Below are positions 14,872 to 29,671 of a stretch of 63,956 nucleotides of DNA, piece after piece. The position numbers and the translations under genes are program-made. The notes below the pieces were generated by a model. That model ran no database searches, was not told where the DNA came from, and was given only the letters and a program-made list of their open reading frames with translations. This stretch comes from Actinomycetales bacterium (lineage in GTDB: Bacteria > Actinomycetota > Actinomycetes > Actinomycetales > Dermatophilaceae): positions 1 through 63,956 of the forward strand of contig JBBPZD010000113.1 in the NCBI GenBank assembly GCA_038199265.1, read 5' to 3'. Position 1 is the first letter of the stretch; every line of letters starts with the position of its first letter.

Positions 14872-15177
14872 ATGACAGTCAAATTGGTCGTCCTCTATAC
14901 CCAGCCCGACGACACCGACGCGTTCGACGAGCACTACCTCGGCAAGCACGGACCACTGGTGGACACGGTCCCCGGTCTCGAACGTTGGGAGGGCGCCGTG
15001 TTCATCGCCGCAGCCGATGACGGCGAGCAGACCTACCACCGGATGGCCGAGCTGTACTTCACCGACGAGGATGCGATGCAGGCTGCCCTGGCCTCCGACG
15101 AAGGTAAGGCGACCGCCGGGGACTACCAGCAGATCGCCCCGCCCGGATCACGGATGTTGGTCGCCAAAGTCGACTGA
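14872..15177 (+). CDS. EthD family protein
   Basis: KLVVLY..P.D..AFDEHY...H.PLV..VPGL...AELYF pattern. Confidence 0.85.
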   Translation: MTVKLVVLYTQPDDTDAFDEHYLGKHGPLVDTVPGLERWEGAVFIAAADDGEQTYHRMAELYFTDEDAMQAALASDEGKATAGDYQQIAPPGSRMLVAKVD

Positions 15178-15294
15178 TACCCGCAGCACTGCGCAGCTGA
15201 CAGTAGGTCCTGAGGCCGATCAAGGGTTGCCGTGGCGTTCACGGTTCAACCGTGGGTCATGAGGGGCTCGGTTCGGGACTTCGCGGGCGGTGAC

Positions 15295-16389
15295 CTAGTG
15301 ACCCTCCGAGTCGGCGACGCTCTCGGCAGCCCTGAGCACGCGCAGAACGTTGCCGCCGGCGAGCTTGGTCAGATCGGTGCTGGACCAGCCGCGGTCGGCG
15401 AGGGCAGTGAACAGACGCGGATACGCGGCCACGTCCTCCAAGCCCTGCGGCATGGTCTCGTTGCCCATGTAGTCACCCCCGATGCCGACATGCCGGACGC
15501 CGACCACATCCCGCACATGCTCGATGTGCGTGACCACCTGAGCCAAGGTAGCGATCGGCGGCGGCGTCAACTCGGTCAACCGTGTCATCAGCAAGTCGTA
15601 AGCCGCCGTTCCCTTGCGCAGCCCACGGCGCCGAGCCTCGGACTTGGCCTCAGCGTTCCATTCGGCAACCGCAGGCGAGACGAAAGCGGGCAGAAACGTC
15701 ACCATGCAGACGCCGTCGTTCTTGGCCAACGCCACCAGGACGTCGTCGGGCACGTTGCGTGGGTGGTCGCAGACTGCCCTCGCTGAGGAGTGACTGAAGA
15801 TCGCCGGCGCGGCGGTTACCCGCAGCGCGTGCCGCATGACGTCGGCTGACACGTGCGACAGATCGACCAGCATGCCGAGGCGGTTCATCTCGCGCACTAC
15901 CTCCTCGCCGAACAGCGACAATCCGTGCAACACCGGCTCGTCGGTCGCTGAGTCGGCCCACGGCACGTTCCTGTTGTGCGTCAGCGTCAGATAGCGCACC
16001 CCCAATGCGCGCATCATGCGTAGGACCGCCAAAGATCCGTTGATGCAGTGGCCGCCCTCCATACCCAGCAGCGATGCGATCCGGTTTCCGGAGGCCTCGA
16101 CCTGGTCGGCGGTCGTCGCCAGCACCAGTCGGTCGGGGTAGCGGGTCACGAGGCGCCGGACGAAGTCGATCTGCTCCAGTGTGGCGACGACCGCTGCAGC
16201 ACCGGCAAAGAGATCCGGGGGTACGTACACCGACCAGAACTGTCCACCCACCCCGCCGGCATCGAGTCGCGCCAGATCGGTGTGCAGATCCGGGACGATC
16301 TGCGTCAGGTCAACGGCGCCCAGATCGGCGTCGTACTGCTGGCGCATCGCCCAGGCAAGATCGTTGTGGCCGTCGATCAGCATCGTCAC
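15295..16389 (-). CDS. Membrane dipeptidase (peptidase M19, renal-dipeptidase family)
   Basis: DGHNDL, GMEGGH, YLTLTH, VDLSH, FSHS, RNVPD and GIGGDY. Confidence 0.93.
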
Positions 16390-16641
16390 TTCTCCTACAT
16401 TTGCAGTCTGTTCGACCGGTACGTCTCACCGCGCGCATCGCACATCTCGTCCGCCTGAGGCTGCGCCGTGGACAAGGGCTTTCGCACTAGTCGAACACGA
16501 CCGACAGTACGTCCCGGACTGACTGCGCTCACCATGGTCGGCGACGGCATCGACTGTCTCCTCGGCACGCTCGACGGGTCGGTCATCCTCGTCTTCGCGG
16601 CTTCGGTCTCGGACAGCCGGATGGTCGTCCCCTCGGGTCGA

Positions 16642-16795
16642 TGTGATCCACGTCTCATGACGAACGGCGCTCTGCGACGAGCGAGCGGCGGGGTGGGACG
16701 GTCCGACGGTGATACCTGTCCCCCGGGGTCCAGGCGGCATACGGTGATTTCACGCCCGGCTCGAACGAGGTGCTCGGACAGCCGAGTGGATCCAG
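16642..16795 (+). promoter_or_regulatory. Promoter/operator copy 1: CRP-like site, phased LytTR-type repeats and TACGGT -10
   Basis: TGTGA-N6-TCTCA (16642-57); GACGAACGGC, AGCGAGCGGC and GTCCGACGGT at 21-bp period (16659, 16680, 16701); TACGGT at 16740. Homologous to 26113-26271 on the minus strand. Confidence 0.7.
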
Positions 16796-16861
16796 ATCTC
16801 GGGTGCGCACAGATGTGTCTAACCCGTGAGAAATTTCCCAGTTGAGGAAGTGGTGTGTCCG

Positions 16862-17332
16862 ATGACGGTAGTTGCAGAACCATCAAAACGAGCCGACCTT
16901 ATCGCCGAGCTCGGTCTGGACAGGCAGAACAAGGCATCCATCGGTCGAGTGTTGTCGACCGGAAACATCGCTGAGGCCACCGAGCGCGCCGACGGCACGA
17001 TGGAGGCGACGATCCGGATCACCGAAGACGAGTGCATCTGGGACCCGGCGATCCTGGTCCTCCCCCATGGCGGCGACCTCGAATTGACGGTCATCAACGA
17101 TGACACGAACACCCACTCCTGCCTGCTGCCCAGCAATGGCGACATGAAGTTCCTGTGGCTGTTGAACCACTCCAGGGGTACGGCTTCACTCAACCTGGAC
17201 GGCCCGGGCTACTACTGGTACAGCTCACCAGGCGGCAACGACGAGGGCCGCGGTCTGACAGCAGCGATCGTCGTCCGCGGCGAAGTCCCGCCAGAGGCCC
17301 GTCTCGACCGACCTGCTCAGCCCCGTCCGTAG
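16862..17332 (+). CDS. PQQ-associated cupredoxin-like protein (MSMEG_3727-like family)
   Basis: Cupredoxin-like strand pattern (WDPAILVLP..GDLELTVINDD..TH, PGYYWY...GL...IVV); directly upstream of the PQQ dehydrogenase. Confidence 0.75.
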   Translation: MTVVAEPSKRADLIAELGLDRQNKASIGRVLSTGNIAEATERADGTMEATIRITEDECIWDPAILVLPHGGDLELTVINDDTNTHSCLLPSNGDMKFLWLLNHSRGTASLNLDGPGYYWYSSPGGNDEGRGLTAAIVVRGEVPPEARLDRPAQPRP

Positions 17333-17347
17333 AAAGGCATCGAAGCG

Positions 17348-19054
17348 ATGACCATCGAATATGTGGAAGCACCAGAGGACTATGTGGACGCCGGTAAGGC
17401 GATCAACCACACTGCGCTGAGCGACGTACCCGGCACCGCGCCTGCAACGAGCACCGTCAATTACGACCGCCTTCTCGACGCCCGTTCGGAATCCCACAAC
17501 TGGATGACGTACTACGGCGCGTACGACGGTCAGCGGTACAGCCTGCTGGACCAGATCAACACCGAGACCGTGAAGAAAATCAGTCCGGCCTGGATTTTCC
17601 AGGCGGGCAGTGCCGGACAAATCGCAGGCTCATCGACGTACGCGTTCGAGGCCTGTCCGGTGATCGTGGACGGTGTCATGTACGTCACCGGCTGGGATGG
17701 CCACTTCTGGGCTCTCGACGCGGCCACCGGTAAGGAACTGTGGCGATACAAGCATGCGGTGCCTTTCGATGTGTCGCTGTGCTGCGGCAACGTCAACCGC
17801 GGTTGTGCCGTCGCAAACGGGAAGGTCTACTTCGTGACCCCGAACGCCCAGTTGCTGGCGTTGGACGCCACCAACGGCGAGACGGTCTGGAAGCGGACGA
17901 TCGGTGACGTACGCGCGGGTGAGAGTGCCTCCCTGGCTCCGCTGGTCGTCAAAGACATGCTGATCACCGGTAGCGCTGGCGGCGAGTTCGGGGTGCGTGG
18001 CCACATCGACTGCTGGGACCTGGAGACCGGTGAACAGCGCTGGCGCACCTACACAGTGCCCAAGCCTGGCGAGCCAGGCTCGGAGACCTGGCCGGATGAC
18101 GGTGAAGCGTGGCAGCGCGGCGGTGCTAACCACTGGGTGACCGGCACGTACGACCCGGAGACGAACCTGTACTACGCGGGCACCGGTAACCCGGCACCCG
18201 ATTTCGACGGTGACATCCGCCCCGGAGACAACCTCTACACCGACAGTGTGGTCGCTCTGAACGTCGATACGGGTGAGATCACCTGGCACTACCAGTTCAC
18301 TCCGCACGACCTGTGGGACTACGACTCCACGATGGAAATGACGTTGTTCGAACGGGACGGCAAGAAGTTACTGGGCCACTTCGACAAGAATGGCTACTTC
18401 TTCGTGCTGGACCGCACCAACGGCGAGCTACAGCACGTCACTCCATTCGTGGACCGGATCGACTGGGGAGTCATCACCCGCGACGGCAAGGTGACCCCCC
18501 GCAAATACCCGGACAAAGAGGGCGAGCCCGTCCACTTCTACCCCGGCCCGGCTGGTGCCAAGGAATGGACCCACGCGGCGTACAGCCAGAAGACGGAGAT
18601 GTTCTACGTCCCCGTCGCCGACGTGGGCGCTACCGCCACCCGGCGCCGCAGGGAGTTCAAAGAGGGCATGCCCTACTGGGGCGCTGCCGTTGCCGTGGAC
18701 ATCGACGACATGTCCGGGTCGGTCAGCGCTTTCGATACCCACGGTGAGGAGAAGTGGCGTCACCGCATCGACTACCCGATGGCCGCATCCGTACTCGCGA
18801 CCGCAGGCGACCTGGTGTTCGCCGGCACTCCCACCGGTGAGTTCCTCGCACTGGATTCCCGTACCGGTGAGAAGCTCTGGGAGTTCCAGTGCGGCAGCGG
18901 TCACCACAGCAGCCCTTCGACCTACAGCGTCGACGGCAGGCAGTACGTTGTCGTGCCAGTCGGCTGGGGGGGATGGCTCGAAGGCATCATTCCTGGAATG
19001 CTCGGCGCCGGTCACGGCAGCGCCTTGATCGCCTTCGCCCTGCCTGAGGCGTAA
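17348..19054 (+). CDS. PQQ-dependent alcohol dehydrogenase, methanol/ethanol family, no signal peptide
   Basis: RYSLLDQIN, vicinal CC in LCCGNVNRG, GGEFGVRG, GTGNPAP, HDLWDYD, repeated ALDA.TG..LW beta-propeller motifs, TYSVDGRQYV. Confidence 0.95.
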   Translation: MTIEYVEAPEDYVDAGKAINHTALSDVPGTAPATSTVNYDRLLDARSESHNWMTYYGAYDGQRYSLLDQINTETVKKISPAWIFQAGSAGQIAGSSTYAFEACPVIVDGVMYVTGWDGHFWALDAATGKELWRYKHAVPFDVSLCCGNVNRGCAVANGKVYFVTPNAQLLALDATNGETVWKRTIGDVRAGESASLAPLVVKDMLITGSAGGEFGVRGHIDCWDLETGEQRWRTYTVPKPGEPGSETWPDDGEAWQRGGANHWVTGTYDPETNLYYAGTGNPAPDFDGDIRPGDNLYTDSVVALNVDTGEITWHYQFTPHDLWDYDSTMEMTLFERDGKKLLGHFDKNGYFFVLDRTNGELQHVTPFVDRIDWGVITRDGKVTPRKYPDKEGEPVHFYPGPAGAKEWTHAAYSQKTEMFYVPVADVGATATRRRREFKEGMPYWGAAVAVDIDDMSGSVSAFDTHGEEKWRHRIDYPMAASVLATAGDLVFAGTPTGEFLALDSRTGEKLWEFQCGSGHHSSPSTYSVDGRQYVVVPVGWGGWLEGIIPGMLGAGHGSALIAFALPEA

Positions 19055-19125
19055 TCGCTTCTCTGCAGTCGGTGGTGACCAATACTGATCACCACTGTCC
19101 ACGTACCGAAAGAAGGAGAAACTCA

Positions 19126-19221
19126 ATGGTCGAAACTCTGCAGCAGTGGGTGTCCCCCACTGTTACCCAGATCCGGGTGTCTGCCGAAGTCACCGCCTAC
19201 GTGGCTACCTCGGACAACTAG
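19126..19221 (+). CDS. pqqA: PQQ precursor peptide PqqA, copy 1 (31 aa)
   Basis: AGAAGGAG RBS; MVETLQQWVSPTVTQIRVSAEVTAYVATSDN with W..P and E-x-x-x-Y; immediately before pqqB. Not in the ORF track. Confidence 0.93.
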   Translation: MVETLQQWVSPTVTQIRVSAEVTAYVATSDN

Positions 19222-19227
19222 TCGAAC

Positions 19228-19270
19228 CCGACGGGGGTGTCTGGGCAATCAAGCCCGACACCCCCGTCGG
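19228..19270 (+). terminator. Stem-loop between pqqA1 and pqqB (stabiliser or partial terminator)
   Basis: Perfect 14-bp stem CCGACGGGGGTGTC/GACACCCCCGTCGG; no U-tract. Confidence 0.7.
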
Positions 19271-19295
19271 CGAGTCTGGGAAAGGGCGATCGGGG

Positions 19296-20189
19296 ATGTG
19301 GATGCGCGTGCTGGGATCAGCCGCTGGCGGGGGCTTTCCACAATGGAACTGCACCTGTCCCCCCTGTCGTGCGGTGCGTACAGGAGCACGGCCTTGCACA
19401 CCACGCACCCAGTCCTCAATCGCGGTCAGCGGTGACCGGCAGCAGTGGTATCTACTCAACGCCTCTCCGGACATTCAGTCACAGATCGAGTCTTTTCCCG
19501 CGCTGCACCCCGCGGACGGCAGGGTGGTTCGGTTGCAGGCCACACTGCTCACCGATGCCGAGCTGGACCACACGCTCGGCTTGCTCTTGATGAGGGAGGG
19601 GCGCGGACTCGAGGTGCACGCGACCGAGTCGATGTACGAGACCCTCACCACCGGAACCGGAGTGCTCCGTACGGCTGAGGCGTACTGCCCGATCACATGG
19701 AGACAGGTGGTTCCCGGTACCGAGGTGCTGCTGGGAGGGGGGCTTTCGTACCGCGCGTTCGCTGTTCCCACCAAGAAACAGCTGCGCTTCACCGGTGCTG
19801 CGGAATACGGTCGAGTCGTCGGCTACCGCATCACCGACACCGCCAGCCGTCGAAGCCTGGTCTATCTGCCGGGCGTACAGCAGCTCACTTCAAGCATTCT
19901 GAAAGAGTTCGCTGATTGCTACGCCTTGCTGGTCGATGGCACGTGCTGGAGTGATGACGAGATGCCCCGCCTCGGCCTGGCCCAGAAAACGTCGCGCGAT
20001 ATGGGGCATGTGCCGATCAACGGTCCTGGGGGCAGCCTGGAGTTGCTGTCGCCGTTGGCCATCGACCGCAAGGTCTACATCCACATCAACAACACCAACC
20101 CCATCCTGCTCGACGACTCGCCAGAACGACTGAACCTCGACCGGCATGGCATGGAAGTCGCCGTGGACGGGTTGGAAATAGAAATTTGA
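19296..20189 (+). CDS. pqqB: PQQ biosynthesis protein PqqB
   Basis: VLGSAAGGGFPQWNCTC..C, RTQSSIAVS, NASPD, DHTLGL, MGH and YIHINNTNP. Confidence 0.96.
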   Translation: MWMRVLGSAAGGGFPQWNCTCPPCRAVRTGARPCTPRTQSSIAVSGDRQQWYLLNASPDIQSQIESFPALHPADGRVVRLQATLLTDAELDHTLGLLLMREGRGLEVHATESMYETLTTGTGVLRTAEAYCPITWRQVVPGTEVLLGGGLSYRAFAVPTKKQLRFTGAAEYGRVVGYRITDTASRRSLVYLPGVQQLTSSILKEFADCYALLVDGTCWSDDEMPRLGLAQKTSRDMGHVPINGPGGSLELLSPLAIDRKVYIHINNTNPILLDDSPERLNLDRHGMEVAVDGLEIEI

Positions 20190-20197
20190 GGAGCACG

Positions 20198-20890
20198 ATG
20201 ACAGCAGTACTCACGCCCGATGAACTCGAGGACGCACTCCGGGCTCATGCCAAGCAGTACCACAGTGAGCACCCCTTCTCCCGGCGGATGAACGAGGGGC
20301 AATCCAGCCCGGAGGAGATCCGTGGTTGGGTGGTCAATCGGTTCTATTACCAGGTGAACATCCCCCGCAAGGATGGCGCGATCCTCAGCAGCTGCCCGGA
20401 CCGTGAGGTACGGCGCCGCTGGGTGCAGCGCGTGATCGACCACGACGGCAGCACCGAGGGAACGGGTGGGATCGAGTCGTGGCTGCGCCTCGGCGAAGCT
20501 GTCGGCTTCACCAGGGAGGAACTCGATGACGAGCGACACCTACTCCCGGGGGTGCGGTTCGCTGTCGATGCCTACGTAACCTTCACGCGCACCCGGCCGT
20601 GGGTGGAGGCGGTGGCCTCCTCGCTGACTGAGCTGTTCGCACCCGACGTGATGGCAAAGCGTCTTGCGGCATTCGAACAGCACTACACGTGGATAGACCC
20701 CGGGGAGCTTGCCTACTTCCGTGCTCGTATCACCCAGGCACCCCGCGACTCCGAGCACGGTCTGGAGGTGGTGCGTCAGCACTGCGTCACCCCGGAGACG
20801 CAGACAGCCGCGATGGCAGCGTTGTCCTTCAAATGCGACGTGCTGTGGAGCATGCTCGACGCGATTGACCAGGGCTATGGAAATCGTTGA
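20198..20890 (+). CDS. pqqC: Pyrroloquinoline-quinone synthase PqqC
   Basis: YH..HPF, NRFYYQ..IPRKD, DHDG, VRFAVDAY, SLTELFAP and FKCDVLW. Confidence 0.96.
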   Translation: MTAVLTPDELEDALRAHAKQYHSEHPFSRRMNEGQSSPEEIRGWVVNRFYYQVNIPRKDGAILSSCPDREVRRRWVQRVIDHDGSTEGTGGIESWLRLGEAVGFTREELDDERHLLPGVRFAVDAYVTFTRTRPWVEAVASSLTELFAPDVMAKRLAAFEQHYTWIDPGELAYFRARITQAPRDSEHGLEVVRQHCVTPETQTAAMAALSFKCDVLWSMLDAIDQGYGNR

Positions 20891-21155
20891 CGGGGCCGCC
20901 CGGCCCAGATTGGCGCCGCACGTGCGGATGGTCTTCGACGCCGCGCGAGAGCAGTACACGCTGCTGTCGCCGGAGTCGATTCTCATCATCAACGCAACCG
21001 GCGCCGCGATAGTGAAGTTGTGCGATGCCCAGCGGACCGTGGCAGACATTCAATCCGAGCTGAGCAGCCAATACGACCAGGTCGCGGACGGCGAGGTGCA
21101 ACTCTTCATCGCTGATCTGGTCACCAAGCGCGGTATGGAGGTAGACCATGGATAA
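20877..21155 (+). CDS. pqqD: PQQ biosynthesis peptide chaperone PqqD
   Basis: RPRLAPHVRMVFD..R....LLSPE....N.TG..IVKLCD; lies between pqqC and pqqE. Confidence 0.92.
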   Translation: MEIVDGAARPRLAPHVRMVFDAAREQYTLLSPESILIINATGAAIVKLCDAQRTVADIQSELSSQYDQVADGEVQLFIADLVTKRGMEVDHG

Positions 21156-22332
21156 GCCCTACGGGATGCTGGCTGAACTCACGTACTCCTGCCCCCTGCA
21201 TTGCGCCTACTGCTCCAATCCTCTCCAGCTCGACGACTATCGAGATGAGCTGAGCACCACGGAGTGGCAACGGGTCTTCACCGAAGCCGCCGACCTGGGC
21301 GTGCTTCAGGTGCACCTCTCCGGCGGCGAGCCGCTGCAGCGCCACGACATCGTCGACCTGGTGAAGTGTGCCAACCAACTGGGCCTGTACACCAACCTGA
21401 TCACCAGCGGACTCGGATTGTCCAGCCGTCGCGCCGAGCAGCTCCGCGACGCAGGCCTCGACCACGTGCAGCTCAGTATCCAGGCCGATGAGCAGGCTCT
21501 ATCTGACCAGATCGCCGGCACTGTCTCATTCGAGCGCAAACAGGTGGCTGCGCGCCTCGTCAAGCAGTTGGGCTGGCCACTGACTCTGAACGTGGTGCTG
21601 CACCGAGAGAATATCGACCGCATCAGCGGCATCCTGGAGATGGCGGTCGCGATGAAGGCCGACCGTGTAGAGCTGGCAAATACGCAGTATGCCGGCTGGG
21701 CAGGGCCCAACCAGGCCGAGTTGCTGCCGAGCAGGGAGCAGCTGGAGCGCGCGGAGACGGTGGTGCGGGCTGCTCGGGAGCGGCTGGGGCAGCAGATGGA
21801 GATCATCTACGTCATTCCCGACTACTACAGCAAGTATCCGAAACCCTGCATGGACGGCTGGGCCAGTCGCCAGTTCACCGTGGTGCCCAACGGCGAGGCG
21901 CTGCCATGCCCGGCTGCCCATGAGATAGCCCGCTCCCTCGGCCTGCCCCCGGCCAGCGTGCGGGAGCACCCCCTTGAGTGGATCTGGGAGGAATCACCGC
22001 TGTTCCAACAGTTCCGCGGCGATGCCTGGATGCCGGATCCGTGCCGCAGCTGCGAGCGCAAAGAGATTGACTTCGGTGGTTGTCGCTGTCAAGCCCTCGC
22101 GCTCACCGGGGACGCCGCCCGGACTGATCCGGTCTGTCACCTCTCGCCTGACCACGGGTTGATCGAGGCCGCGGTGTCTGCAGCGAACGACCCGGCGCGG
22201 CCGCGGAACGGTTCGTTGATTCCCCGCCCACAGGTGGGCCGCCGGAAAACACAAGCGACCCCGGCAACCCGGGAACTGACCAGAAATACGCTCATTTCGC
22301 TGTCTCCGACCGTATTGGAGGGAGAAGAATGA
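21148..22332 (+). CDS. pqqE: Radical SAM/SPASM PqqA peptide cyclase PqqE
   Basis: AELTYSCPLHCAYCSNP, SGGEP, PKPCMDGW and CRSC...DFGGCRCQA. Confidence 0.96.
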   Translation: MDKPYGMLAELTYSCPLHCAYCSNPLQLDDYRDELSTTEWQRVFTEAADLGVLQVHLSGGEPLQRHDIVDLVKCANQLGLYTNLITSGLGLSSRRAEQLRDAGLDHVQLSIQADEQALSDQIAGTVSFERKQVAARLVKQLGWPLTLNVVLHRENIDRISGILEMAVAMKADRVELANTQYAGWAGPNQAELLPSREQLERAETVVRAARERLGQQMEIIYVIPDYYSKYPKPCMDGWASRQFTVVPNGEALPCPAAHEIARSLGLPPASVREHPLEWIWEESPLFQQFRGDAWMPDPCRSCERKEIDFGGCRCQALALTGDAARTDPVCHLSPDHGLIEAAVSAANDPARPRNGSLIPRPQVGRRKTQATPATRELTRNTLISLSPTVLEGEE

Positions 22333-22868
22333 TTGGTTTGATAGGTCTCGGTTTTGCCCTGAGCCTGGACAACTTTCGGACATCGATAGCGCTCGGAGGG
22401 CTCAAACCGACCTTGCGGCAGTCAACTCAGACGTCCCTGATCTTTGCCCTCTGGGACGGTCTGGCACCGATCGTCGGGTTGTTGGGCGGTGGGTATCTGA
22501 GCACCAGGATCTCCGCCGCCGGTGAAATGATCGCAGCGGCCGGACTTGCGTCATACGGCCTGTGGCTCATCGTCAGGGTGATCCGGTCACCCGAGCATGC
22601 CGATTTCGGCATGAAAACAGCCAGGCGCTGGCTGCCCATACCGTTGAGCATCGATAACGTCGCTGCGGGCGCGGCACTCGGTTTGGCGGGATATTCGCCA
22701 TGGTTTGCGCCGTTCCTGTTCGCGGCGACGACGTTCGTCATGTCGGTCGTCGGCCACCAGGTCGGCCGTACAGTGGCCAACTTCTTCCGCTTCCGCACCG
22801 ACCTGTGGACCGGGATCGCGTTTGTCCTGATGGGTGGCCTGGTTGTCGCGGGCGTAGGTGATTTCTGA
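22329..22868 (+). CDS. MntP/DUF204-like membrane protein, copy 1
   Basis: Two repeats ALSLDNF and PLSIDNV in about 6 TM helices; ATGA-coupled to pqqE. Confidence 0.75.
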   Translation: MIGLIGLGFALSLDNFRTSIALGGLKPTLRQSTQTSLIFALWDGLAPIVGLLGGGYLSTRISAAGEMIAAAGLASYGLWLIVRVIRSPEHADFGMKTARRWLPIPLSIDNVAAGAALGLAGYSPWFAPFLFAATTFVMSVVGHQVGRTVANFFRFRTDLWTGIAFVLMGGLVVAGVGDF

Positions 22869-23068
22869 TGGCGGACATGCGCTCGGGCGACCTGGGAGAC
22901 GCCGTTGTGCGCCCGCCGTGCTATCTGTGTGGCGAGTCGTACACCTCGGTCGATGCCGGTCGGCACACCGAGTCGGTCGATTGCAAGGTTTGTCCGGGCT
23001 GCAATTCAATGCCCGCTTGCTTCACGTGTCGGAACATGTACTGCTCGTGTGCTTTGCACCAACACTGA
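22868..23068 (+). CDS. Small cysteine-rich protein (66 aa, 9 Cys)
   Basis: TGATG coupling to the upstream gene; CxxC...CxxCxxC.....CxxC....CxC..HxH. Confidence 0.6.
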   Translation: MADMRSGDLGDAVVRPPCYLCGESYTSVDAGRHTESVDCKVCPGCNSMPACFTCRNMYCSCALHQH

Positions 23069-23092
23069 TGGCGCAAGGAGTTCTGAGCACAC

Positions 23093-25333
23093 TCAGGACT
23101 GATCGAACCGATCGAGGTTCATGACCTTGACCCACGCGGACACGAAGTCCTGCACGAAGGTCTTTTCAGCGTTCGGACCGGCGTAGAACTCCGACAGCTC
23201 GCGCAGTTCCGAATGGGCACCGAAAAGGAGATCAGTGCGACCGGCGACCCACTTCAGTTCGCCGGTGCGCCGGTTGCTGCCCTCGTAGGTCGTCTCCACA
23301 GTGGTGTTGCCCGGGATCGGCGTCCACACGATCTCGATGTCGAGCAGGTTGACGAAGAAGTCGTTGCTCAGGGAGCCCGGTGTCGAGGTAAGCACGCCAA
23401 CAGCGGATCGGCCGTGGTTCGCACCGATCACGCGCAGCCCACCGAGCAGCACTGTCATCTCCTGGGCGCTCAACGTCAGTTGATTCGCTCGATCGATGAG
23501 CAGCAGTTCAGACGGCAGTCGGTTGCCGGTGCCGAGGTAATTACGGAACCCGTCCGCTGTCGGTTCCAGCACGGCGAACCATTCGGGGTCGGTGCACTCC
23601 TGCGTTGCATCGGTGCGTCCCGGTCGGAACGGGACCTCGATGTGGTGACCCGCACTGGCAGCAGCGGCTTCGACCGCAGCGCACCCGCCAAGCACGATGA
23701 GGTCAGCAAGCGAAATCTTCTTGCCGCCGCGCTGACATTCATTGAACTGAGCACGGATCTGCTCAAGCGTGTCGAGCACCGAGAGCAGCATTTCAGGCTC
23801 GTTGACATCCCAGCTCAACTGCGGTGCCAGCTGGATGCGGCCACCGTTGGCCCCACCTCGTTTATCGCTATTGCGGAACGTGGAGGCCGACGCCCACGCC
23901 GTCAGGACCAGCTCCACCATTGACAAACCCGACTCGAGTAGTCGGCTCTTGAGGGCGGCGACGTCGTCCGCGTCGATGAGTTCGTGGTCAACGGCTGGTA
24001 ACGGGTCCTGCCAGATCAGTTGTTCGGACGGAACCAGCGACCCCAGATACCGCTGGGCTGGGCCCATATCGATGTGCGTGAGTTTGTACCAGGCCCGCGC
24101 GAATGCGTCCGCCATCTGGTCCGGGTTCTCCAGGTACCGCCGTGCGATCACCTCGTATCTGCGATCCTCCCGCAGTGCCAGGTCGATAGTGAGAACCGTG
24201 GGTGCATGTGTCTTGGACGGATCGTGAGCGTCCGGAACGGTGCCGGCGCCCGCGCCGTCTCTCGGGATCCACTGCCACAGACCGGCAGGGCTGAGCGTCA
24301 CGTCCCACTCATAGCCGAAGAGTGTCTCGAGATAGCTGTTGTCCCAGGTGGTCGGGGTCGGCGTCCAGATTCCCTCGAGCCCACTGTTGATCGTGTCGGC
24401 ACCGTTGCCCGTACCGAATGGGTTCGCCCAGCCCAGGCCCTGCGCTTCGAGCGGCGCCGCCTCGGGTTCAGGTCCGAGGTCGTAGGTGCCCCGGTTGGCC
24501 ACTCCGTGGGTCTTCCCGAACGTGTGCCCACCCGCAATCAGCGCGACGGTCTCCTGATCGTCCAACCCCATCCGAGCGAACGTTTGACGGATATCGCGCG
24601 CCGAAGAAATCGGGTCGGGCACCGTGGCGGGACCCTGTGGGTCGACGTAGATCAGCCCCATCTCGGTCGCTGCCAGCGGCTCGTCCAGATCCCGGATACC
24701 ACTGTGCCGCTCGTCTGCGAGCCATTCGTGTTCTGGGCCCCAATAGGTATCGTCGGCCTCCCACACCTCCTCACGGCCACCCGCAAATCCGAAGGTCGTG
24801 AACCCCATCGATTCCAGTGCTCTGTTACCCGCGAAGATCATCAGATCAGCCCAAGAGATCTTGGAGCCGTACTTCTTCTTCACCGGCCAGAGCAGGCGGC
24901 GCGCCTTGTCCAGGTGGCGGTTGTCAGGCCATGAGTTGAGCGGCGCGAAGCGCAGCATCCCCGCGCTCCCCCCGCCCCGTCCGTCAGTCGCGCGGTACGT
25001 TCCGGCGCTGTGCCACGCCATCCGCAATATGAGCGGACCGTAATGTCCGAAGTCGGCAGGCCACCAGCTCTGCGAGGTTGTCAGCGCCTCGTCGACATCG
25101 CGTGCCAATGCCTCGAGATCGAGGGAGAGGAACTCCTTGGCGTAGTCGAAATCGTCGCCCAACGGATTGGCCGCGCGGCCGGGCCGGGCCAGGGACTGCA
25201 GATTGAGCCGCAGCGGCCACCCGTCAGCTGGGCCCCCTCGTGTCCCACGATGACTGCTCCCCTTGAGCGACCGGCGCGTGTCCACGGTGGCGTGGTAAGT
25301 CCGGGTGACGTACGTATCAGGGTTTCCAGGCAT
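23093..25333 (-). CDS. katG: Catalase-peroxidase
   Basis: [48 protein letters not shown] and KVMNLDRFD. Confidence 0.96.
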
Positions 25334-25353
25334 CGGTTGTCTTCCCGCGATGT

Positions 25354-25402
25354 CGCGACCGGGGGTGTAAGGCTGGTGAGTCAGTCAACACCCCCCGACG
25401 CG
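25354..25402 (-). terminator. Stem-loop between pqqA2 and katG
   Basis: On the minus strand CGCGTCGGGGGGTGT...ACACCCCCGGTCGCG (two mismatches); homologous to the hairpin after pqqA1. Confidence 0.6.
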
Positions 25403-25407
25403 TTCGA

Positions 25408-25515
25408 CTAGTTGTCCGAGGTTGCCACGTAAGCAGTGACCTCAGCGGATACGCGGACCTGGGGCGCCGCAGGCGTCTGCCACGGTGGCAGAGTCTGGCC
25501 GACGAACTGAGCCAT
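25408..25515 (-). CDS. pqqA: PQQ precursor peptide PqqA, copy 2 (35 aa)
   Basis: GAGGAAGG RBS; MAQFVGQTLPPWQTPAAPQVRVSAEVTAYVATSDN. The last 15 aa are identical to copy 1. Confidence 0.92.
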   Translation of the reverse strand: MAQFVGQTLPPWQTPAAPQVRVSAEVTAYVATSDN

Positions 25516-25552
25516 CAGGTCCTTCCTCTCTCGATATCTGGACGATATTTGA

Positions 25553-26059
25553 TCAGGCAACGAATAGCAGGACAGGTACCGCGATGATCGACGCGACACC
25601 AGCGATACCGGCCGTGAGAATTTTGTTCTCGTGCACCTTCGGGATGGCGCGCACGATGGCGACACTCACGACGACGCCACCCAGGGCAAGCAGCGTGCTC
25701 GACGCGAGCTGCAAAGCGGCTGATGACGCTACCGAAGAGGAGTTGTCGAGTAGGCCGAAGCTGATGTTGTCGAGTGTCAGGGCGATTGGAAGGGCCCACA
25801 CCCAGCGGGTGTTGGCGACTCTCTGCGCGGTGATGGCCACGATGACCAGATAGACACCCAGGGCCAACAAAGCCGTCCCCGACACGATGCTGGCAGTGAG
25901 CTCAGACATCTCGTAGTGCAGCGCCGTCCCGAGAAGGAAGGCCCCGGAATCGGCTATTCCGAACAACATGGCGAACGGCAACCATGAACGGCGAGGAAGG
26001 AGGGCACCTACGGCGAGACATGCGATGAAGCTGTCAATTCCAAGTGCTAAAAAACCCAT
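25553..26059 (-). CDS. MntP/DUF204-like membrane protein, copy 2
   Basis: ALGIDSF and ALTLDNI repeats; multi-TM; RBS GAGAGG. Confidence 0.7.
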   Translation of the reverse strand: MGFLALGIDSFIACLAVGALLPRRSWLPFAMLFGIADSGAFLLGTALHYEMSELTASIVSGTALLALGVYLVIVAITAQRVANTRWVWALPIALTLDNISFGLLDNSSSVASSAALQLASSTLLALGGVVVSVAIVRAIPKVHENKILTAGIAGVASIIAVPVLLFVA

Positions 26060-26112
26060 GAGGACCTCTCTCGATCAACGAAGAGATGAAAAGGCACGTG
26101 TTTTGCCTCAGC

Positions 26113-26271
26113 ATCCAGAATCCGCTCGCTTGTCCAAACACCTCTTTTCGAACCGGGCGTAAAACGCACCGTATGCCGCTTGAACCCACGGGAACAGACA
26201 TTGCCGCCAGACCGCCACACGCTGCCGCTCGCTCCCAACAAGGAGCCGTTCGTCGTGAGACCTGGATCACA
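26113..26271 (-). promoter_or_regulatory. Promoter/operator copy 2
   Basis: On the plus strand: TGAGA-N6-TCACA (26256-71); GCCGTTCGTC (26245), GCCGCTCGCT (26224) and GCCGCCAGAC (26203) at 21-bp period; ACCGTA (26168-73). Spacing is the same as in copy 1. Confidence 0.7.
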
Positions 26272-26525
26272 CGGCCGGGCGACGTGCACGCATGCGGCTG
26301 AATGCTGCCGCCGCCGAGACGTGCCACCACCCCCGGACAACAAAATCGGCTGCCAACCGAATCAGTGACCAGCGTTGAGTGGGTGAGCACCGGGAGCACC
26401 CACCTGAGTATCTTGATCTATGCATCGCAGTGGCAGATAGCCTGTTGTGAAGTAACCACTACCCGTTCATGTCGGGCCTGTTCCGATGTCCCGTGCGGGC
26501 TTATGAACAGATCGAGAGCGCCACA

Positions 26526-27926
26526 ATGTCAGGTGTTCAACGACTCCAGTCGGCGTCCCGCACCTCGACGAAGACTGATGTCTACAGCGCGTGGGAACGC
26601 TTCGTGCAGGGCGATGACGACATTTCAGGCGTGCGGCCCGAAGTCGCAGTCTCCTGGCAGCGATCGCGGGATCAGTACCGCGTGGACCCGTTTCTATCGG
26701 TGGCACCGACGGCGGTCTCACAGTCTGCACACCCCCTCGACCACGACGTGGTCTTCGCAGAGTTGGGTTTTCGTGCCGCCGCCATCGCGCACGAGGTGGC
26801 GAACGCAGGAGGCGTTGTGATGGTTGCCGACGCGAACGGCGGGGTCCTGGGGGCTTGGGGTGATAAAAACACCCGTGCGATCGCCACTGACGGCGGACTT
26901 GCGCCGTGGTTCTCCTGGTCTGAGGGCGCGGTAGGTACGAACGGCATGGGCACCGCGCTCGAATCCCGGCACGCGATGATGATCAGTCGATCGGAACACT
27001 GGTGTAAGACTTTCCACGAGTGGTCCTGTGGCGGCATCGCTGTGCGAGACGTCGTCAGTAAGGATCCGATCGCGGTCCTGAACATCTCGTGTTGGCGAAG
27101 TGACCTTCCAGCGTCCGCGCGCGCGTGGCTGGAAGGTGCCGCGACCTACACCCAGTCCAGCTTGCGCAAGCGCGCGGGAGAAAGCGGTAGCGAGCTACTC
27201 GCAGCCTTCAGCCGTGCCCGAGCTCAGTCGACCGAGCCACTCGTCGCCGTCGACAGGGCTGGCGCGGTGGTCGTTGCCGACGACAGGGCGAGCATCATCC
27301 TCGGTGTCCCCGGCAATACCCCGGCGATCGATCCCGCAGTGCGCTGGACTCCGCAGTTGCCCGCGTTCATCCACGCCGCCCGCTACGCGACCGATCAGGC
27401 GGAGTCAGACCGGGATTGGACTGGTTCGACTCAGCTCTTCATCCCCCTCGCTGACGAACCGTCCCTGATCGGAATCCGGCCCGTGTTCCTTTACGGCAAT
27501 CTGATCGGCCACCTGATCTCTTTCGGTGCCTTCCCGGGTGAGCAATTCCCACACCACGAAGTAGGGCGATCCCCACAAGGGGGGTCCCGTCGGATCGTCG
27601 CCGTCCGTGAGGAGAACCGAATGGTGCTGCTGCGGACTGCGGAGGTCGCCGTGGCCGAATCGGACCATGACGACGTGTGGCTGGTGACGGATGAGGGAAG
27701 ATTGCGGGCGGCCCTATCCGGCCTCGACAAACTCGACAACGAACTGGCCGGCACCGGTACTTTCATGCGGGTCCACCGTCAGTATGTCGTCAACTTGGAC
27801 CGAATTCGGGAAGTCGAACGTCGAGACAAGGGGGAACTGATGCTGGTGATGGACGATAGCGAGAACACCATGGTGCCCGTGTCCCGACGGAACACTCGTG
27901 CGGTACGCCGTGCGCTCGGCATCTGA
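26526..27926 (+). CDS. Transcriptional regulator with AcoR-type GAF domain and C-terminal LytTR domain
   Basis: VRPEVAVSWQRS, WSEGAVGTNGMGTALE and EHWCKTFHEWSC (AcoR-like GAF); FMRVHRQYVVNLDRI...VPVSRR (LytTR). Confidence 0.88.
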   Translation: MSGVQRLQSASRTSTKTDVYSAWERFVQGDDDISGVRPEVAVSWQRSRDQYRVDPFLSVAPTAVSQSAHPLDHDVVFAELGFRAAAIAHEVANAGGVVMVADANGGVLGAWGDKNTRAIATDGGLAPWFSWSEGAVGTNGMGTALESRHAMMISRSEHWCKTFHEWSCGGIAVRDVVSKDPIAVLNISCWRSDLPASARAWLEGAATYTQSSLRKRAGESGSELLAAFSRARAQSTEPLVAVDRAGAVVVADDRASIILGVPGNTPAIDPAVRWTPQLPAFIHAARYATDQAESDRDWTGSTQLFIPLADEPSLIGIRPVFLYGNLIGHLISFGAFPGEQFPHHEVGRSPQGGSRRIVAVREENRMVLLRTAEVAVAESDHDDVWLVTDEGRLRAALSGLDKLDNELAGTGTFMRVHRQYVVNLDRIREVERRDKGELMLVMDDSENTMVPVSRRNTRAVRRALGI

Positions 27927-27929
27927 GGC

Positions 27930-28541
27930 TCATCGCCCCCGGAGAGAGCTGGTGCTGAGCGGTCGTAGAGCAGCAGCGAACGCATCAAGTTCCGCGAAGG
28001 GGGCGGTACCGATGACCACGGTGCTCAGTCCGCCGAGCGGCCCAGGTCGCACGAGCGAGCGCTGCTCGCCGTCACTGCGTTCCCAACGGGTCCAGGTCTG
28101 CCCTGCGATCGACGACGTGCCGACCTGCTTGGAGGCACCGATCTGTTGCTTGGTCCAGGCCTCGCTCGTACCAGCGGTTTGGACGACGGCGGCGTACTTG
28201 TTGTCCGGTGAGGTGTAGCCCGCCTGCCAGGTGTTCGGCTTACCGGAGATCAAGGTCACGTTGGTCGCGGTCCACCCCTGCGGCAACTGATCGGCCACGG
28301 CCACGTCCCACTTCTGGGTCTTGCTGACGTCCCGGGCGATCGATGCGACGTTCGCCGTCGTGGGCCGCACATTGTCGACCCTAGGCGTCAGTGCAAACAG
28401 GACGAGACACCCTGCGACCAACACCACCATCGAGGTGATGATGCTCTTCGCGGTGCCGCTCATGCCGCGTCGGGCGGGCGCGGGCGCAGGCGCGTCGGAC
28501 GTTTCAGCGGGTGGGGAAGTCACCTGTCTATGGTCGCGCAT
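27930..28541 (-). CDS. DUF4245 family protein
   Basis: Single TM, LPQGWTATN, WQAGY..P; divergent from glpX as in other actinobacteria. Confidence 0.82.
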   Translation of the reverse strand: MRDHRQVTSPPAETSDAPAPAPARRGMSGTAKSIITSMVVLVAGCLVLFALTPRVDNVRPTTANVASIARDVSKTQKWDVAVADQLPQGWTATNVTLISGKPNTWQAGYTSPDNKYAAVVQTAGTSEAWTKQQIGASKQVGTSSIAGQTWTRWERSDGEQRSLVRPGPLGGLSTVVIGTAPFAELDAFAAALRPLSTSSLRGR

Positions 28542-28645
28542 GCGGATTGTCTGACGACATCCGCCCGGTGTGCCTTCGCTGGCTACACTCGCGATGGAGT
28601 TCGAGGGTCCACTTCCAGGGCCCTACCCGCTGACGAAGGAGCCGC

Positions 28646-29668
28646 ATGTCCGCCAACGACACGCACCAGACGAGCAACCCCAGCAACGACGCCGTACCGG
28701 ATCGCAACCTCGCGCTCGAGTTGGTTCGCGTCACTGAAGCCGCTGCCATGGCGGGTGGCCGGTGGGTCGGACGCGGTGAGAAGAATGACGCCGACGGCGC
28801 CGCTGTTGCTGCGATGCGACGGGTCATCTCCTCGGTCGCGATGAACGGTGTCGTCGTCATCGGTGAAGGCGAGAAGGACGAAGCACCGATGCTCTACAAC
28901 GGTGAACACGTCGGAGACGGCTCAGGACCGGGTGTCGATGTAGCGGTCGACCCCATCGACGGCACAACCCTGACCGCCAAGGGCATGAGTAACGCCGTCT
29001 CGGTCATGGCGGTGAGCGAACGTGGTTCGATGTACGACCCCAGCTCCGTGTTCTACATGGACAAGCTGGCTGCCGGTCCGGACATCGCCGATGTCGTCGA
29101 CATCCGACTGCCGGTCGCCGAGAACATCCGCCGGGTCGCCAAGGCCAAGAAGGTGGGACCCGCCGACGTCACAGTCGTGATGCTGGACCGGCCCCGTCAC
29201 CAGCAGCTCGCACAGCAGATCCGCGACGCGGGCGCCCGGTTGCGCTACATCGCCGACGGAGATGTCGCCGGCGCAATCATGGCCGCTCGGCCGGACACCG
29301 GTATCGACCTGCTGCTCGGTGTAGGCGGTACCCCCGAGGGCATCATTACTGCGTGCGCCATGAAGGCTCTCGGCGGCACGATTCAGGGCATCCTGGCCCC
29401 CAAGGATGACGAGGAGCGTCAGAAGGCCATCGACGCAGGTCTTCACCTCGACACTGTCCTCGCGACCGACGACCTGGTCCGCGGCGACAATGCGTTCTTC
29501 GTCGCGACGGGCATCACTGACGGCGAGCTGCTGCGCGGAGTTCGCTACCGTGCCGACGGCTGCTACACCCAGTCCCTGGTGATGCGTTCGAAGAGCGGCA
29601 CGATCCGCACCATCGACGCGCACCACTCGGTGGCGAAGATGGCCGAGTACACGAGTGTGGACCGCTGA
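28646..29668 (+). CDS. glpX: Class II fructose-1,6-bisphosphatase
   Basis: [38 protein letters not shown] and GGTPEG. Confidence 0.97.
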
Positions 29669-29671
29669 TCC

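What the first reader, a model, noticed from the sequence alone, without database searches (positions are those of the whole stretch)
16642..27926. Two-armed PQQ alcohol-oxidation island: convergent operons with duplicated promoter, precursor and transporter, plus katG and a dedicated regulator
Seen: arm 1 (+) is cupredoxin-like, PQQ-ADH, pqqA1, pqqBCDE, MntP-like and Cys-rich. Arm 2 (-) is MntP-like, pqqA2 and katG. The arms converge at about 23080, start from homologous promoters, and the GAF-LytTR gene is divergent from arm 2. No cytochrome c gene and no export signal on the dehydrogenase are visible. Known: classical PQQ-ADHs are periplasmic and pass electrons to cytochrome c or azurin. 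Inference: a cytoplasmic quinoprotein system packaged with its own cofactor supply, metal transport and peroxide removal, possibly reoxidised by O2 or a non-canonical acceptor.
Basis: partly seen in the sequence, partly recalled or inferred. Interest (0 to 1): 0.88.

Follow-up and report, generated by a model that had tools for sequence, protein, structure and literature searches.

The report
Arginine-less KatG partnering cytoplasmic PQQ dehydrogenase
This actinobacterial gene island pairs a PQQ alcohol dehydrogenase that has no export signal with a distinct family of catalase-peroxidases that have all lost the arginine needed for catalase activity, so this enzyme likely works as a peroxidase that helps re-oxidise the dehydrogenase inside the cell rather than as an ordinary peroxide scavenger.

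Summary
The anatomy is real. Arm 1 is the known but uncharacterised M. smegmatis MSMEG_3721-3727-type cassette: a PQQ dehydrogenase with the lanthanide D-x-D motif and no signal peptide, a copper-less cupredoxin and pqqABCDE. This scan noted that core before on other DNA. The two-armed layout is only one of many arrangements; arm 2 looks like a decayed copy of the promoter-to-pqqA unit, with katG behind it.

New here is the katG. It belongs to its own clade, which keeps the haem site and Met-Tyr-Trp adduct but lacks Arg418 (62 of 62, against 26 of 26 controls with Arg). Published work calls this residue invariant and needed for catalase, not peroxidase, activity. In 401 class genomes the Arg-less motif occurs only in the 2 that carry the cupredoxin; 290 have the Arg motif. 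M. smegmatis KatG3 has Ile there.

Best reading (0.4): a peroxidase that likely acts as oxidant sink for a cytoplasmic methanol/alcohol dehydrogenase. Against: 9 of 9 genomes of another class carry the dehydrogenase with no katG found, and katG usually follows the LytTR regulator gene, so a sensing role (0.25) is a real rival.

The parts
15295..16389 (-). M19 (membrane dipeptidase family) gene, divergent from arm 1; likely the protease step of PQQ synthesis (inferred; no pqqF in the island)
   Evidence: PF01244. M19 genes lie in 15 of 118 class loci and in 8 of 9 loci of another class, there as a different subfamily
16642..16657 (+). CRP-like site (TGTGA-N6-TCTCA) upstream of the repeats
   Evidence: Sequence. 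A CRP-like site lies at this place in 29 of 91 promoters. The consensus is recalled
16662..16688 (+). Arm-1 direct repeat GA[AG]CGG-N15-GA[AG]CGG, predicted LytTR binding site
   Evidence: profile hits 110 times in 99 of 118 loci, 98 of them in front of the cupredoxin gene
16740..16745 (+). Predicted -10 element (TACGGT), 51 nt after the second repeat
   Evidence: TAnnnT at +51 in 68 of 92 promoters that have both repeats. The generic sigma-70 scan found no site
16862..17332 (+). MSMEG_3727-family protein: cupredoxin fold, His85 kept, Cys/His/Met replaced by Ser122/Asp127/Leu132, no signal peptide
   Evidence: TIGR04339, 270 bits. Fold match Z 10.1, rmsd 2.4, 95 aligned, to CupA 4f2e from a model of mean pLDDT 64. 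Ligand swap against exported relatives
17348..19054 (+). PQQ alcohol dehydrogenase, type I, lanthanide-type D324-x-D326, vicinal Cys145-Cys146, no signal peptide
   Evidence: TIGR03075, 637 bits. Best solved relative 6zcv, E 3e-114. Ten active-site columns invariant in 57 of 57
19126..19221 (+). pqqA1 (31 aa, EVTAY core), followed by a strong hairpin
   Evidence: Hairpin z -6.0
19296..22332 (+). pqqB, pqqC, pqqD, pqqE
   Evidence: TIGR02108, TIGR02111, TIGR03859, TIGR02109, all over cut-off
22329..22868 (+). MntP-like membrane protein 1; predicted cation transporter
   Evidence: PF02659. MntP-like gene in 43 loci, Na/Ca exchanger-family gene in 15, both in 0 of 118
22868..23068 (+). 66-aa Cys/His-rich protein, conserved, no family
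   Evidence: Hits in 36 of 79 loci. Conserved Cys pattern in 26 full-length copies. No Pfam or NCBIfam hit
23093..25333 (-). KatG of a dedicated clade: R104, W107, H108, D137, Y229, M255, H270 kept; Ile421 (codon within 24060-24091) in place of Arg418 of M. tuberculosis numbering
   Evidence: TIGR00198
25408..25515 (-). pqqA2 (35 aa), followed by the same hairpin as pqqA1, then katG where arm 1 has pqqB
25553..26059 (-). MntP-like membrane protein 2, a different subfamily from protein 1
   Evidence: 31% identity to protein 1; 64% to a gene between the dehydrogenase and pqqA in L032
26168..26271 (-). Arm-2 promoter: CRP-like site, direct repeat at 26225-26251, predicted -10 at 26168-26173
26526..27926 (+). 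One-component regulator: DhaR-like (GAF-type) N-terminus and LytTR DNA-binding domain; predicted activator of both arms
   Evidence: PF04397. Weak DhaR match, E 6e-9, below cut-off. In 68 of 79 loci

Best explanation
The island encodes a signal-less, lanthanide-motif PQQ dehydrogenase that likely oxidises methanol or other small alcohols in the cytoplasm, together with a specialised KatG that has lost its catalase-switch arginine and is predicted to act as a peroxidase that takes up the dehydrogenase's electrons in place of the missing cytochrome c or blue-copper acceptor.

SHOWN in sequence and comparisons: the genes, the motifs, the loss of export signals and copper ligands, the Arg-less KatG clade and its tie to this module, and the shared repeat promoter.

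INFERRED: (1) The GAF-LytTR protein binds the repeats and switches on both arms in response to an alcohol or aldehyde. (2) PQQ is made and kept in the cytoplasm; the second pqqA raises precursor supply, the M19 peptidase trims it, and the MntP-like or Na/Ca-exchanger slot handles the metal. (3) Reduced PQQ cannot hand electrons to menaquinone or NAD+ (redox potentials, recalled), so they must go to O2 or H2O2. (4) Without Arg418 the KatG does not split H2O2 to O2 and water, but uses it to oxidise a donor, most simply PQQH2, directly or through the copper-less cupredoxin as adaptor. Net: 2 alcohol + O2 gives 2 aldehyde + 2 water, with no energy conserved at this step, like an alcohol oxidase. 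(5) Formaldehyde goes to pathways that flank the module in many genomes; no Hps or Phi was found in this 87%-complete genome.

Arm 2 is a derived unit: a copy of promoter-(cupredoxin-dehydrogenase)-transporter-pqqA that lost the first two genes and put katG under the shared promoter.
For: Arg loss is clade-wide. 62 of 62 module-linked full-length KatGs lack it (I35 L22 V2 S1 A1 Q1) and 26 of 26 controls have it. 0 of the 120 best database hits have it. The clade has SH-aLRT 100 in a quick IQ-TREE run on 21 of the 62 plus all 26 controls.

Unbiased check. In 401 class genomes the Arg motif is in 290. The Arg-less motif is in 2, the same 2 that hold TIGR04339 over cut-off; in G207 the two lie 9 kb apart. 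Reverse test: 38 of 40 metagenome contigs found by the Arg-less motif alone carry a module gene, 26 of 40 the cupredoxin or dehydrogenase.

Meaning of the residue. Arg418 is described as essential for catalase but not peroxidase activity (10.1101/246249, whole text) and as invariant (PMC10839757, passages). The best solved match, 4c51, itself has Leu there. The haem triads and adduct residues are invariant in 67 of 67, so this is not a decaying gene.

Catalase is redundant here: two Arg KatGs and a monofunctional catalase. In the window and 13 other loci katG sits behind the repeat promoter, a pqqA or the dehydrogenase/pqq operon. Of 10 genomes checked (9 with no katG at the locus, 1 with only a remnant), 8 hold an Arg-less copy elsewhere.

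The old acceptor is gone: exported relatives keep His/Cys/His/Met and a signal peptide, the actinobacterial ones do not. In katG-less loci of another class a flavoprotein (4 of 9) and a 2Fe-2S ferredoxin (5 of 9) recur, and in 0 of 118 class loci, as if another redox partner fills the slot.

C1 substrate: among 118 loci rpe 23, rpiB 22, glpX 17, fba 17, phi 12, hps 11, tkt 9. FdhA, Fae, Mtd and Gfa lie in other loci.
Against: KatG is not obligatory. 0 of 9 cassette-bearing genomes of another class gave a katG hit, and PF00141 found none in the 5 of them tested while ringing in 5 of 14 controls. The genomes of L062 and L064 have only Arg KatG.

In 61 of 99 scored katG starts the gene directly follows lytTR, and the repeat box was found in that direction upstream of only 1 of 79 lytTR genes. 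There katG is probably not co-induced with the dehydrogenase. Distance matrices track katG-lytTR 0.62, katG-cupredoxin 0.57 and katG-dehydrogenase 0.51, against 0.83 for dehydrogenase-cupredoxin (56 loci; confounded by linkage and kinship).

The Met-Tyr-Trp residues, needed for catalase only, are kept, so some catalase-type chemistry may remain. Clade-specific Arg139 and Arg171 (61 of 62 each) could compensate; I had no coordinates to test that. One Arg-less KatG (L114) lies outside the clade and one clade member (L109) has no module within about 9 kb either side.

In M. smegmatis the cassette did not rescue a mycofactocin mutant on C2-C6 alcohols, and wild type did not grow on methanol (PMC6529628, passages; no lanthanide is named in the carbon-source passage I saw). 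No biochemical or expression data were obtained.
Confidence: 0.4

Rival explanations
1. The Arg-less KatG is part of the sensing circuit. Made together with the GAF-LytTR regulator, it turns alcohol plus trace H2O2 into the aldehyde that the regulator senses, or relays a redox signal to it, and so primes the dehydrogenase operon.
For: katG directly follows lytTR on the same strand in 61 of 99 scored starts, often 14-37 nt apart, with no repeat box upstream in that direction (1 of 79). The highest distance correlation of katG is with lytTR (0.62). In the other class katG, a full-length lytTR orthologue and the paired boxes at the cassette promoter are all missing together (lytTR searched genome-wide in 5 of the 9).
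Against: In the window and 13 other loci katG is downstream of the regulated promoter or inside the dehydrogenase/pqq operon. L062 and L064 have a LytTR homologue (46-48%) and no Arg-less KatG. Peroxidatic alcohol oxidation by KatG is not something I could document.
Confidence: 0.25
2. The KatG is a local H2O2 scavenger for peroxide from PQQ synthesis and PQQH2 autoxidation. The arginine was lost because catalase is redundant, or it is compensated by other clade-specific changes.
For: The adduct residues are invariant. The site tolerates I, L, V, M, S, A and Q, which fits relaxed selection as well as selection against Arg. Clade-specific Arg139 and Arg171 exist. The dehydrogenase occurs without KatG in another class.
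Against: No reversion in 104 of 104 non-control motif matches or in 120 of 120 best hits. A dedicated scavenger adds little in a genome with three other catalases. G207 shows only the Arg-less motif, which cuts both ways.
Confidence: 0.2
3. The KatG is a maturation enzyme in the manner of MauG (recalled). It uses H2O2 to form the dehydrogenase's vicinal disulfide in the reducing cytoplasm, to modify the cupredoxin, or to finish an oxidative step of PQQ synthesis.
For: Cys145-Cys146 is invariant in 57 of 57 signal-less enzymes, although the cytoplasm has no disulfide-forming system (established knowledge). katG often sits behind pqqA or pqqE-transporter genes.
Against: The same cysteines and pqqBCDE are present in the 9 katG-less genomes. 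Ordinary PQQ producers need no KatG (recalled).
Confidence: 0.1
4. The dehydrogenase is exported by an unrecognised route and coupled to the membrane cytochrome, and katG is an incidental passenger of the island.
For: The genome has a di-haem cytochrome c. The island is patchy: TIGR04339 over cut-off in 0 of 40 relatives, inserted between xseB and DUF4245, which are adjacent in L150.
Against: No signal on either partner in 81 and 83 ORFs. The katG tie holds in both directions and across many gene orders.
Confidence: 0.05

Closest known systems
M. smegmatis PQQ cassette MSMEG_3721-3727 with MSMEG_3729 (KatG3, KATG3_MYCS2)
   Same: Same gene families: TIGR04339 next to TIGR03075 in one cassette with the pqq genes (PMC3023750 and PMC6529628, passages). 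MSMEG_3729 is one of three katG genes (PMC9325904, passage). The protein named KATG3_MYCS2 is 73% identical to the window's KatG and has Ile at the switch site.
   Different: The cassette is annotated only; in the passages read it has no demonstrated function. The window splits it into two convergent arms with a second promoter, pqqA and transporter. I equate KATG3_MYCS2 with MSMEG_3729 from name and locus number, not from a call.
PedH/ExaF-type lanthanide PQQ ethanol dehydrogenases (PDB 6zcv, 6zcw; the name PedH is recalled, the call lists 'quinoprotein ethanol dehydrogenase')
   Same: Best solved relative, E 3e-114. Vicinal cysteines, Glu, Asn, catalytic Asp and the extra Asp align.
   Different: No signal peptide, no cytochrome c or binding-protein partner; the partner cupredoxin has lost its copper ligands.
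Canonical catalase-peroxidase KatG (M. tuberculosis structures 2cca, 1sj2, 8czp; 4c51, which has Leu at 418)
   Same: Both domains, distal Arg-Trp-His, Asp137, proximal His-Trp-Asp and the Met-Tyr-Trp residues.
   Different: Mobile Arg418 replaced in the whole clade. Most members also have N231D (44 of 62), E233Q (45 of 62), Arg139, Arg171 and a more hydrophobic 344-353 hairpin.
Exported blue-copper relatives of the MSMEG_3727 family (P0143, P0148, P0149, P0185)
   Same: 30-44% identical across the distant set, same fold and C-terminal tail.
   Different: They keep a signal or lipoprotein peptide and His/Cys/His/Met; the actinobacterial form has neither.
Yeast peroxisomal alcohol oxidase plus catalase (recalled)
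   Same: Works-like analogy only: alcohol oxidised inside the cell with O2 as final acceptor, a haem enzyme handling H2O2, formaldehyde fixed on a pentose phosphate.
   Different: Unrelated proteins (flavin oxidase, monofunctional catalase); no membership claimed.

Membership tests
Type I PQQ alcohol dehydrogenase (TIGR03075) | HMM over cut-off; vicinal Cys-Cys and PQQ/metal ligands | tested here: met
   637 bits against cut-off 480; residues invariant in 57 of 57
Lanthanide-dependent PQQ dehydrogenases (XoxF/PedH type) | Extra Asp two residues after the catalytic Asp | tested here: met
   D324-Y-D326 aligns with D-F-D of 6zcv; Asp in 57 of 57
Lanthanide-dependent PQQ dehydrogenases (XoxF/PedH type) | Activity depends on a lanthanide | not testable with these tools
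   Needs purified enzyme
Classical periplasmic quinoprotein systems | Signal peptide on the enzyme | tested here: not met
   No RRx[FL] motif in 81 ORFs, N-terminal hydropathy at most 1.66; a simple rule, no SignalP run
Classical periplasmic quinoprotein systems | Cytochrome c or blue-copper acceptor in the cluster | tested here: not met
   No cytochrome family among families in 4 or more of 118 loci; copper ligands lost
MSMEG_3727 family (TIGR04339/PF23509) | HMM over cut-off, next to a PQQ enzyme | tested here: met
   270 bits against 75; dehydrogenase in 79 of 79 loci
Type-1 blue-copper cupredoxins | Cupredoxin fold | tested here: met
   Z 10.1, rmsd 2.4, 95 aligned to 4f2e; cupredoxin-domain proteins fill the list; model pLDDT only 64
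Type-1 blue-copper cupredoxins | His, Cys, His, Met ligand set | tested here: not met
   His85, Ser122, Asp127, Leu132 invariant in 57 of 57; Cys/His/Met in exported relatives
Catalase-peroxidase KatG (TIGR00198) | HMM over cut-off, haem triads, Met-Tyr-Trp residues | tested here: met
   1026 bits against 770; invariant in 67 of 67
Catalase-peroxidase KatG (TIGR00198) | Mobile Arg418 | tested here: not met
   Ile421; 62 of 62 clade members lack Arg
Catalase-peroxidase KatG (TIGR00198) | High catalase activity | not testable with these tools
   Needs assay
PqqA precursor (TIGR02107) | Short ORF with E-x-x-x-Y, HMM over cut-off | tested here: met
   25.5 and 21.2 bits against 20
MntP manganese exporter (NF008546) | Equivalog cut-off | tested here: not met
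   28 bits against 214; PF02659 met for protein 1 only
LytTR one-component regulator | LytTR domain and spaced direct repeats in target promoters | tested here: met
   PF04397; two repeats 21 nt apart in 92 of 96 aligned promoters; binding itself untested
RuMP methylotrophy in this genome | hps and phi genes | tested here: inconclusive
   Not found by tblastn in the 87%-complete assembly; hps or phi in 18 of 118 related loci

The most novel reading that the evidence does not exclude
A naturally catalase-disabled KatG is the soluble terminal acceptor of a cytoplasmic, lanthanide-dependent quinoprotein: an alcohol to PQQ to haem to O2/H2O2 chain that needs no periplasm, cytochrome c, copper or quinone, and that gives KatG's peroxidase activity a physiological donor.
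Probability: 0.3. Interest if true: 0.92.

Novelty: new variant of a known kind. Interest (0 to 1): 0.77.

Why it matters
Arg418 is described as invariant in KatG and has been studied through engineered mutants. Here a whole natural clade lacks it, including the named KatG3 of the laboratory strain M. smegmatis mc2 155, and that clade is found almost only beside one uncharacterised PQQ dehydrogenase module. This gives a ready system for two open questions: what KatG's peroxidase activity oxidises in the cell (that this is open is recalled), and how a PQQ-lanthanide enzyme can be re-oxidised in a bacterium with no periplasmic acceptor. It also suggests why the M. smegmatis cassette has seemed silent (it may need a lanthanide), and it warns that these genes, annotated as catalase/peroxidase HPI, may not be catalases. 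The C1 genes around the module point to an overlooked route of methanol use in soil actinobacteria.

Tried and rejected
Complex prediction (dehydrogenase + cupredoxin + KatG N-domain) was not available, so no binding claim is made.
RNA runs: none was listed for 16500-26400; this is no evidence on expression.
ESM Atlas for the Cys-rich protein gave no answer.
The generic sigma-70 promoter scan found 0 sites; the promoter rests on the comparative profile.
No solved relative of the regulator's N-terminal 235 aa; 'GAF' rests on a weak DhaR match.
'Two-armed convergent design is conserved': rejected. Convergent arms recur in L006, L008 and L205 (Paenarthrobacter-type), but lytTR-katG-promoter-cupredoxin-dehydrogenase is the commonest order.
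'Duplicated transporter': rejected as a recent duplication.
'KatG is obligatory': rejected.
Mycofactocin as acceptor here: no MftC over cut-off in this genome.
GC content does not mark the island; GC3 is 0.73-0.81 against 0.76-0.85 in flanking genes.
The pqqA1 query was out of frame; its hits were ignored and pqqA counts come from the pqqA2 query.
The FastTree support printed (0.069) is unreliable after re-rooting; I rely, which is the quick search without bootstrap. L003 was dropped as a duplicate view of L004.
My CxxCH scan missed the cytochrome found.
Literature: ten full-text searches gave no paper on a natural Arg-less KatG or on the function of this cassette; one search was swamped by 'katG315' papers. 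The primary mutant paper (Zhao 2012) could not be opened and Iwao and Nakata 2018 was not read, so a published remark on KatG3's residue or activity could have been missed. No supplements were read.

Full report
Observation. Arm 1 runs 16862-23068 on +, arm 2 runs 26059-23093 on -, and the regulator 26526-27926 points away from arm 2. The two longest inverted repeats in 14-30 kb are the two promoters (105 nt, 77%) and the two pqqA-plus-hairpin units (103 nt, 77%). The two membrane proteins are only 31% identical over 113 residues. The island sits between xseB and a DUF4245 gene, which are neighbours in a same-family genome (L150), and TIGR04339 passes cut-off in 0 of 40 relatives.

The core is a known but uncharacterised cassette. 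[quoted passage not shown] PMC6529628 (passages) lists MSMEG_3721-3727 and finds that it does not replace mycofactocin on alcohols. Earlier notes of this scan already describe the signal-less enzyme with a copper-less cupredoxin in other genomes, one of them with a catalase-peroxidase. I re-tested these points. The enzyme's closest solved relative is 6zcv, and the D-x-D motif, vicinal cysteines and other ligands align and are invariant in 57 of 57. None of 81 dehydrogenase and 83 cupredoxin ORFs has a twin-arginine motif or a strong hydrophobic start, whereas six distant relatives of the cupredoxin have a hydrophobic leader, and four of those six keep Cys, His and Met where ours has Ser122, Asp127 and Leu132. 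A moderate model (pLDDT 64) matches cupredoxin domains.

Synteny. The dehydrogenase is in 79, lytTR in 68, katG in 67, pqqE in 45, the Cys-rich gene in 36. Among 118 loci (78 of these plus 40 metagenome contigs) an MntP-like gene is in 43, a Na/Ca-exchanger-family gene in 15 and both in none, so the slot looks like an interchangeable cation transporter. Ribulose-monophosphate and pentose-phosphate genes recur, and in several Pseudonocardiaceae loci a second repeat box faces them. This points to methanol and formaldehyde, though hps and phi were not found in this genome.

Promoter. A profile grown from the window's two copies hits 110 times in 99 of 118 loci, 98 times in front of the cupredoxin gene. 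It holds two GA[AG]CGG repeats 21 nt apart and a TAnnnT 51 nt downstream in 68 of 92. In this genome only the two window copies score strongly. That a LytTR domain binds such spaced repeats is established knowledge; binding here is predicted. Arm 2 reads as a derived unit. L003/L004 has a full duplicate promoter-cupredoxin-dehydrogenase-pqqA-katG, L005 a promoter-cupredoxin remnant-katG, L014 promoter-pqqA-katG, and L032 has the arm-2 type transporter between dehydrogenase and pqqA.

The KatG. Of 67 full-length KatGs aligned (75 hits, 8 dropped for coverage), all keep R104, W107, H108, D137, N138, Y229, M255, H270, W321 and D381, but 63 lack Arg418. The 4 with Arg are this genome's two other katG genes and two second copies in Streptomyces loci. 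With 22 more KatGs from relatives as controls and one duplicate removed, the count is 62 of 62 without Arg against 26 of 26 with. The module KatGs form one clade (all 88 rows in FastTree; SH-aLRT 100 on 47 rows). The top solved match, 4c51, has Leu at this site while 8czp has Arg. Two papers state that the residue is needed for catalase but not peroxidase activity, one calling it invariant (10.1101/246249, whole text; PMC10839757, passages). A review says that without the adduct route the oxidising equivalents pass outward to one-electron substrates (PMC11951088, passages).

The link holds in blind tests. In one even draw of 401 class genomes the Arg motif is in 290 and the Arg-less motif in 2, the same 2 with TIGR04339 over cut-off (the Arg-less pattern covers codons whose middle base is not G). 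Of 40 metagenome contigs picked by the Arg-less motif alone, 38 carry a module gene and 26 the cupredoxin or dehydrogenase. L109 is a clade member without the module; L114 is an independent loss outside the clade. None of the 120 best database hits has Arg. One of their clusters holds the protein named KATG3_MYCS2, which has Ile; MSMEG_3729 is one of the three katG genes of that species (PMC9325904, passage). This genome also has a monofunctional catalase.

Results against the simplest story. Twelve of the 79 loci lack katG. I checked the genomes of 9 of them plus L037, which has only a remnant: 8 of 10 hold an Arg-less copy elsewhere, and those of L062 and L064 do not. In a phylum draw of 401 genomes, 9 from another class carry the cassette. 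None gave a katG hit (PF00141 empty in 5 of 5 tested), and their loci show no lytTR homologue and no paired box at the cassette promoter. They carry instead an N-terminally short ClpB (6 of 9), a 2Fe-2S ferredoxin (5), a flavoprotein (4), an M19 peptidase (8) and, in some, formaldehyde genes. So the signal-less dehydrogenase can occur without KatG. In 61 of 99 scored katG starts the gene lies right behind lytTR, where no repeat box was found upstream, and katG distances follow lytTR (0.62) slightly better than the dehydrogenase (0.51). In the window and 13 other loci, by contrast, katG is under the repeat promoter or in the dehydrogenase/pqq operon.

Mechanism. A cytoplasmic PQQ enzyme has no cytochrome c, its old copper acceptor is dismantled, and menaquinone and NAD+ lie too low in potential (recalled). 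Its electrons must reach O2 or H2O2. A KatG that keeps the haem site but not the catalase switch would spend H2O2 on a donor rather than release O2, which fits a role as oxidant sink (0.4). The flavoprotein/ferredoxin pair in katG-less loci may be another solution to the same need. The gene order fits a sensing or priming role with the regulator nearly as well (0.25). Plain scavenging with relaxed or compensated Arg loss (0.2), maturation (0.1) and export (0.05) remain. No step of the chemistry was shown, no complex could be predicted, and no RNA run was listed.

Verdict. Real; a new variant of known parts. The core module is annotated and was seen before by this scan. The Arg-less, module-bound KatG clade was not found in ten paper searches or in the scan's notes, with the caveat that the primary KatG mutant paper and the M. 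smegmatis three-katG paper were not read. It can be tested directly in M. smegmatis. Interest 0.77.

Noticed in passing
window 14287-15177: DUF1232 and EthD-family genes lie inside the inserted region; DUF1232 recurs near the module in 7 of 79 loci.
   Followed up: partly
window 13700-14280: Non-coding stretch between xseB and DUF1232 at the left edge of the insertion; no integrase seen in the island, and no boundary repeat stood out among the repeats listed (one search covered 14000-30000 only).
   Followed up: no
L196:10848-15576, L201:4831-9155, L202:3357-7872, L203, L204: In another class the cassette travels with an N-terminally short ClpB, a TcuA-like flavoprotein, a 2Fe-2S ferredoxin and ChrB_N; possibly an alternative redox or activation module.
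   Followed up: partly
L114:1361-3619: An Arg-less KatG (Leu) outside the clade in a 56% GC contig with no PQQ genes nearby: an independent loss.
   Followed up: partly
L109:8732-11038: Clade KatG standing alone behind a permease-like gene, with no module gene within about 9 kb on either side.
   Followed up: partly
L003/L004: Psychromicrobium silvestre has a complete divergent duplication of promoter-cupredoxin-dehydrogenase-pqqA, one copy followed by pqqBCDE and the other by katG.
   Followed up: partly
L028, L045, L047, L049, L052, L056 and others: Many loci carry a second GAF-LytTR paralogue, mostly about 40% identical to the window's.
   Followed up: no
window 16862-17332, residues 79-85 and 122-132: The two former copper loops now hold invariant Asn, Asp and Glu (N79, D80, D81, N83, N126, D127, E128), which could form an oxygen-rich site for a lanthanide, Ca or Mn.
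   Followed up: no
L198:10322-20000; L200:10872-13469; L062:3116-4336; L064:8731-9897: Different formaldehyde routes flank the cassette: Fae/Mtd (methanopterin), Gfa/FrmA/esterase (glutathione) and FdhA-type dehydrogenases.
   Followed up: partly
G000:C138 8635-9969: A distant GAF-type paralogue of the regulator (27% over 186 aa) lies among genes that look like a molybdenum-hydroxylase cluster.
   Followed up: no
P0393 (KATG3_MYCS2): M. smegmatis KatG3 has Phe for Trp135 and Phe for Ser109, extra changes near the haem that most clade members lack.
   Followed up: no
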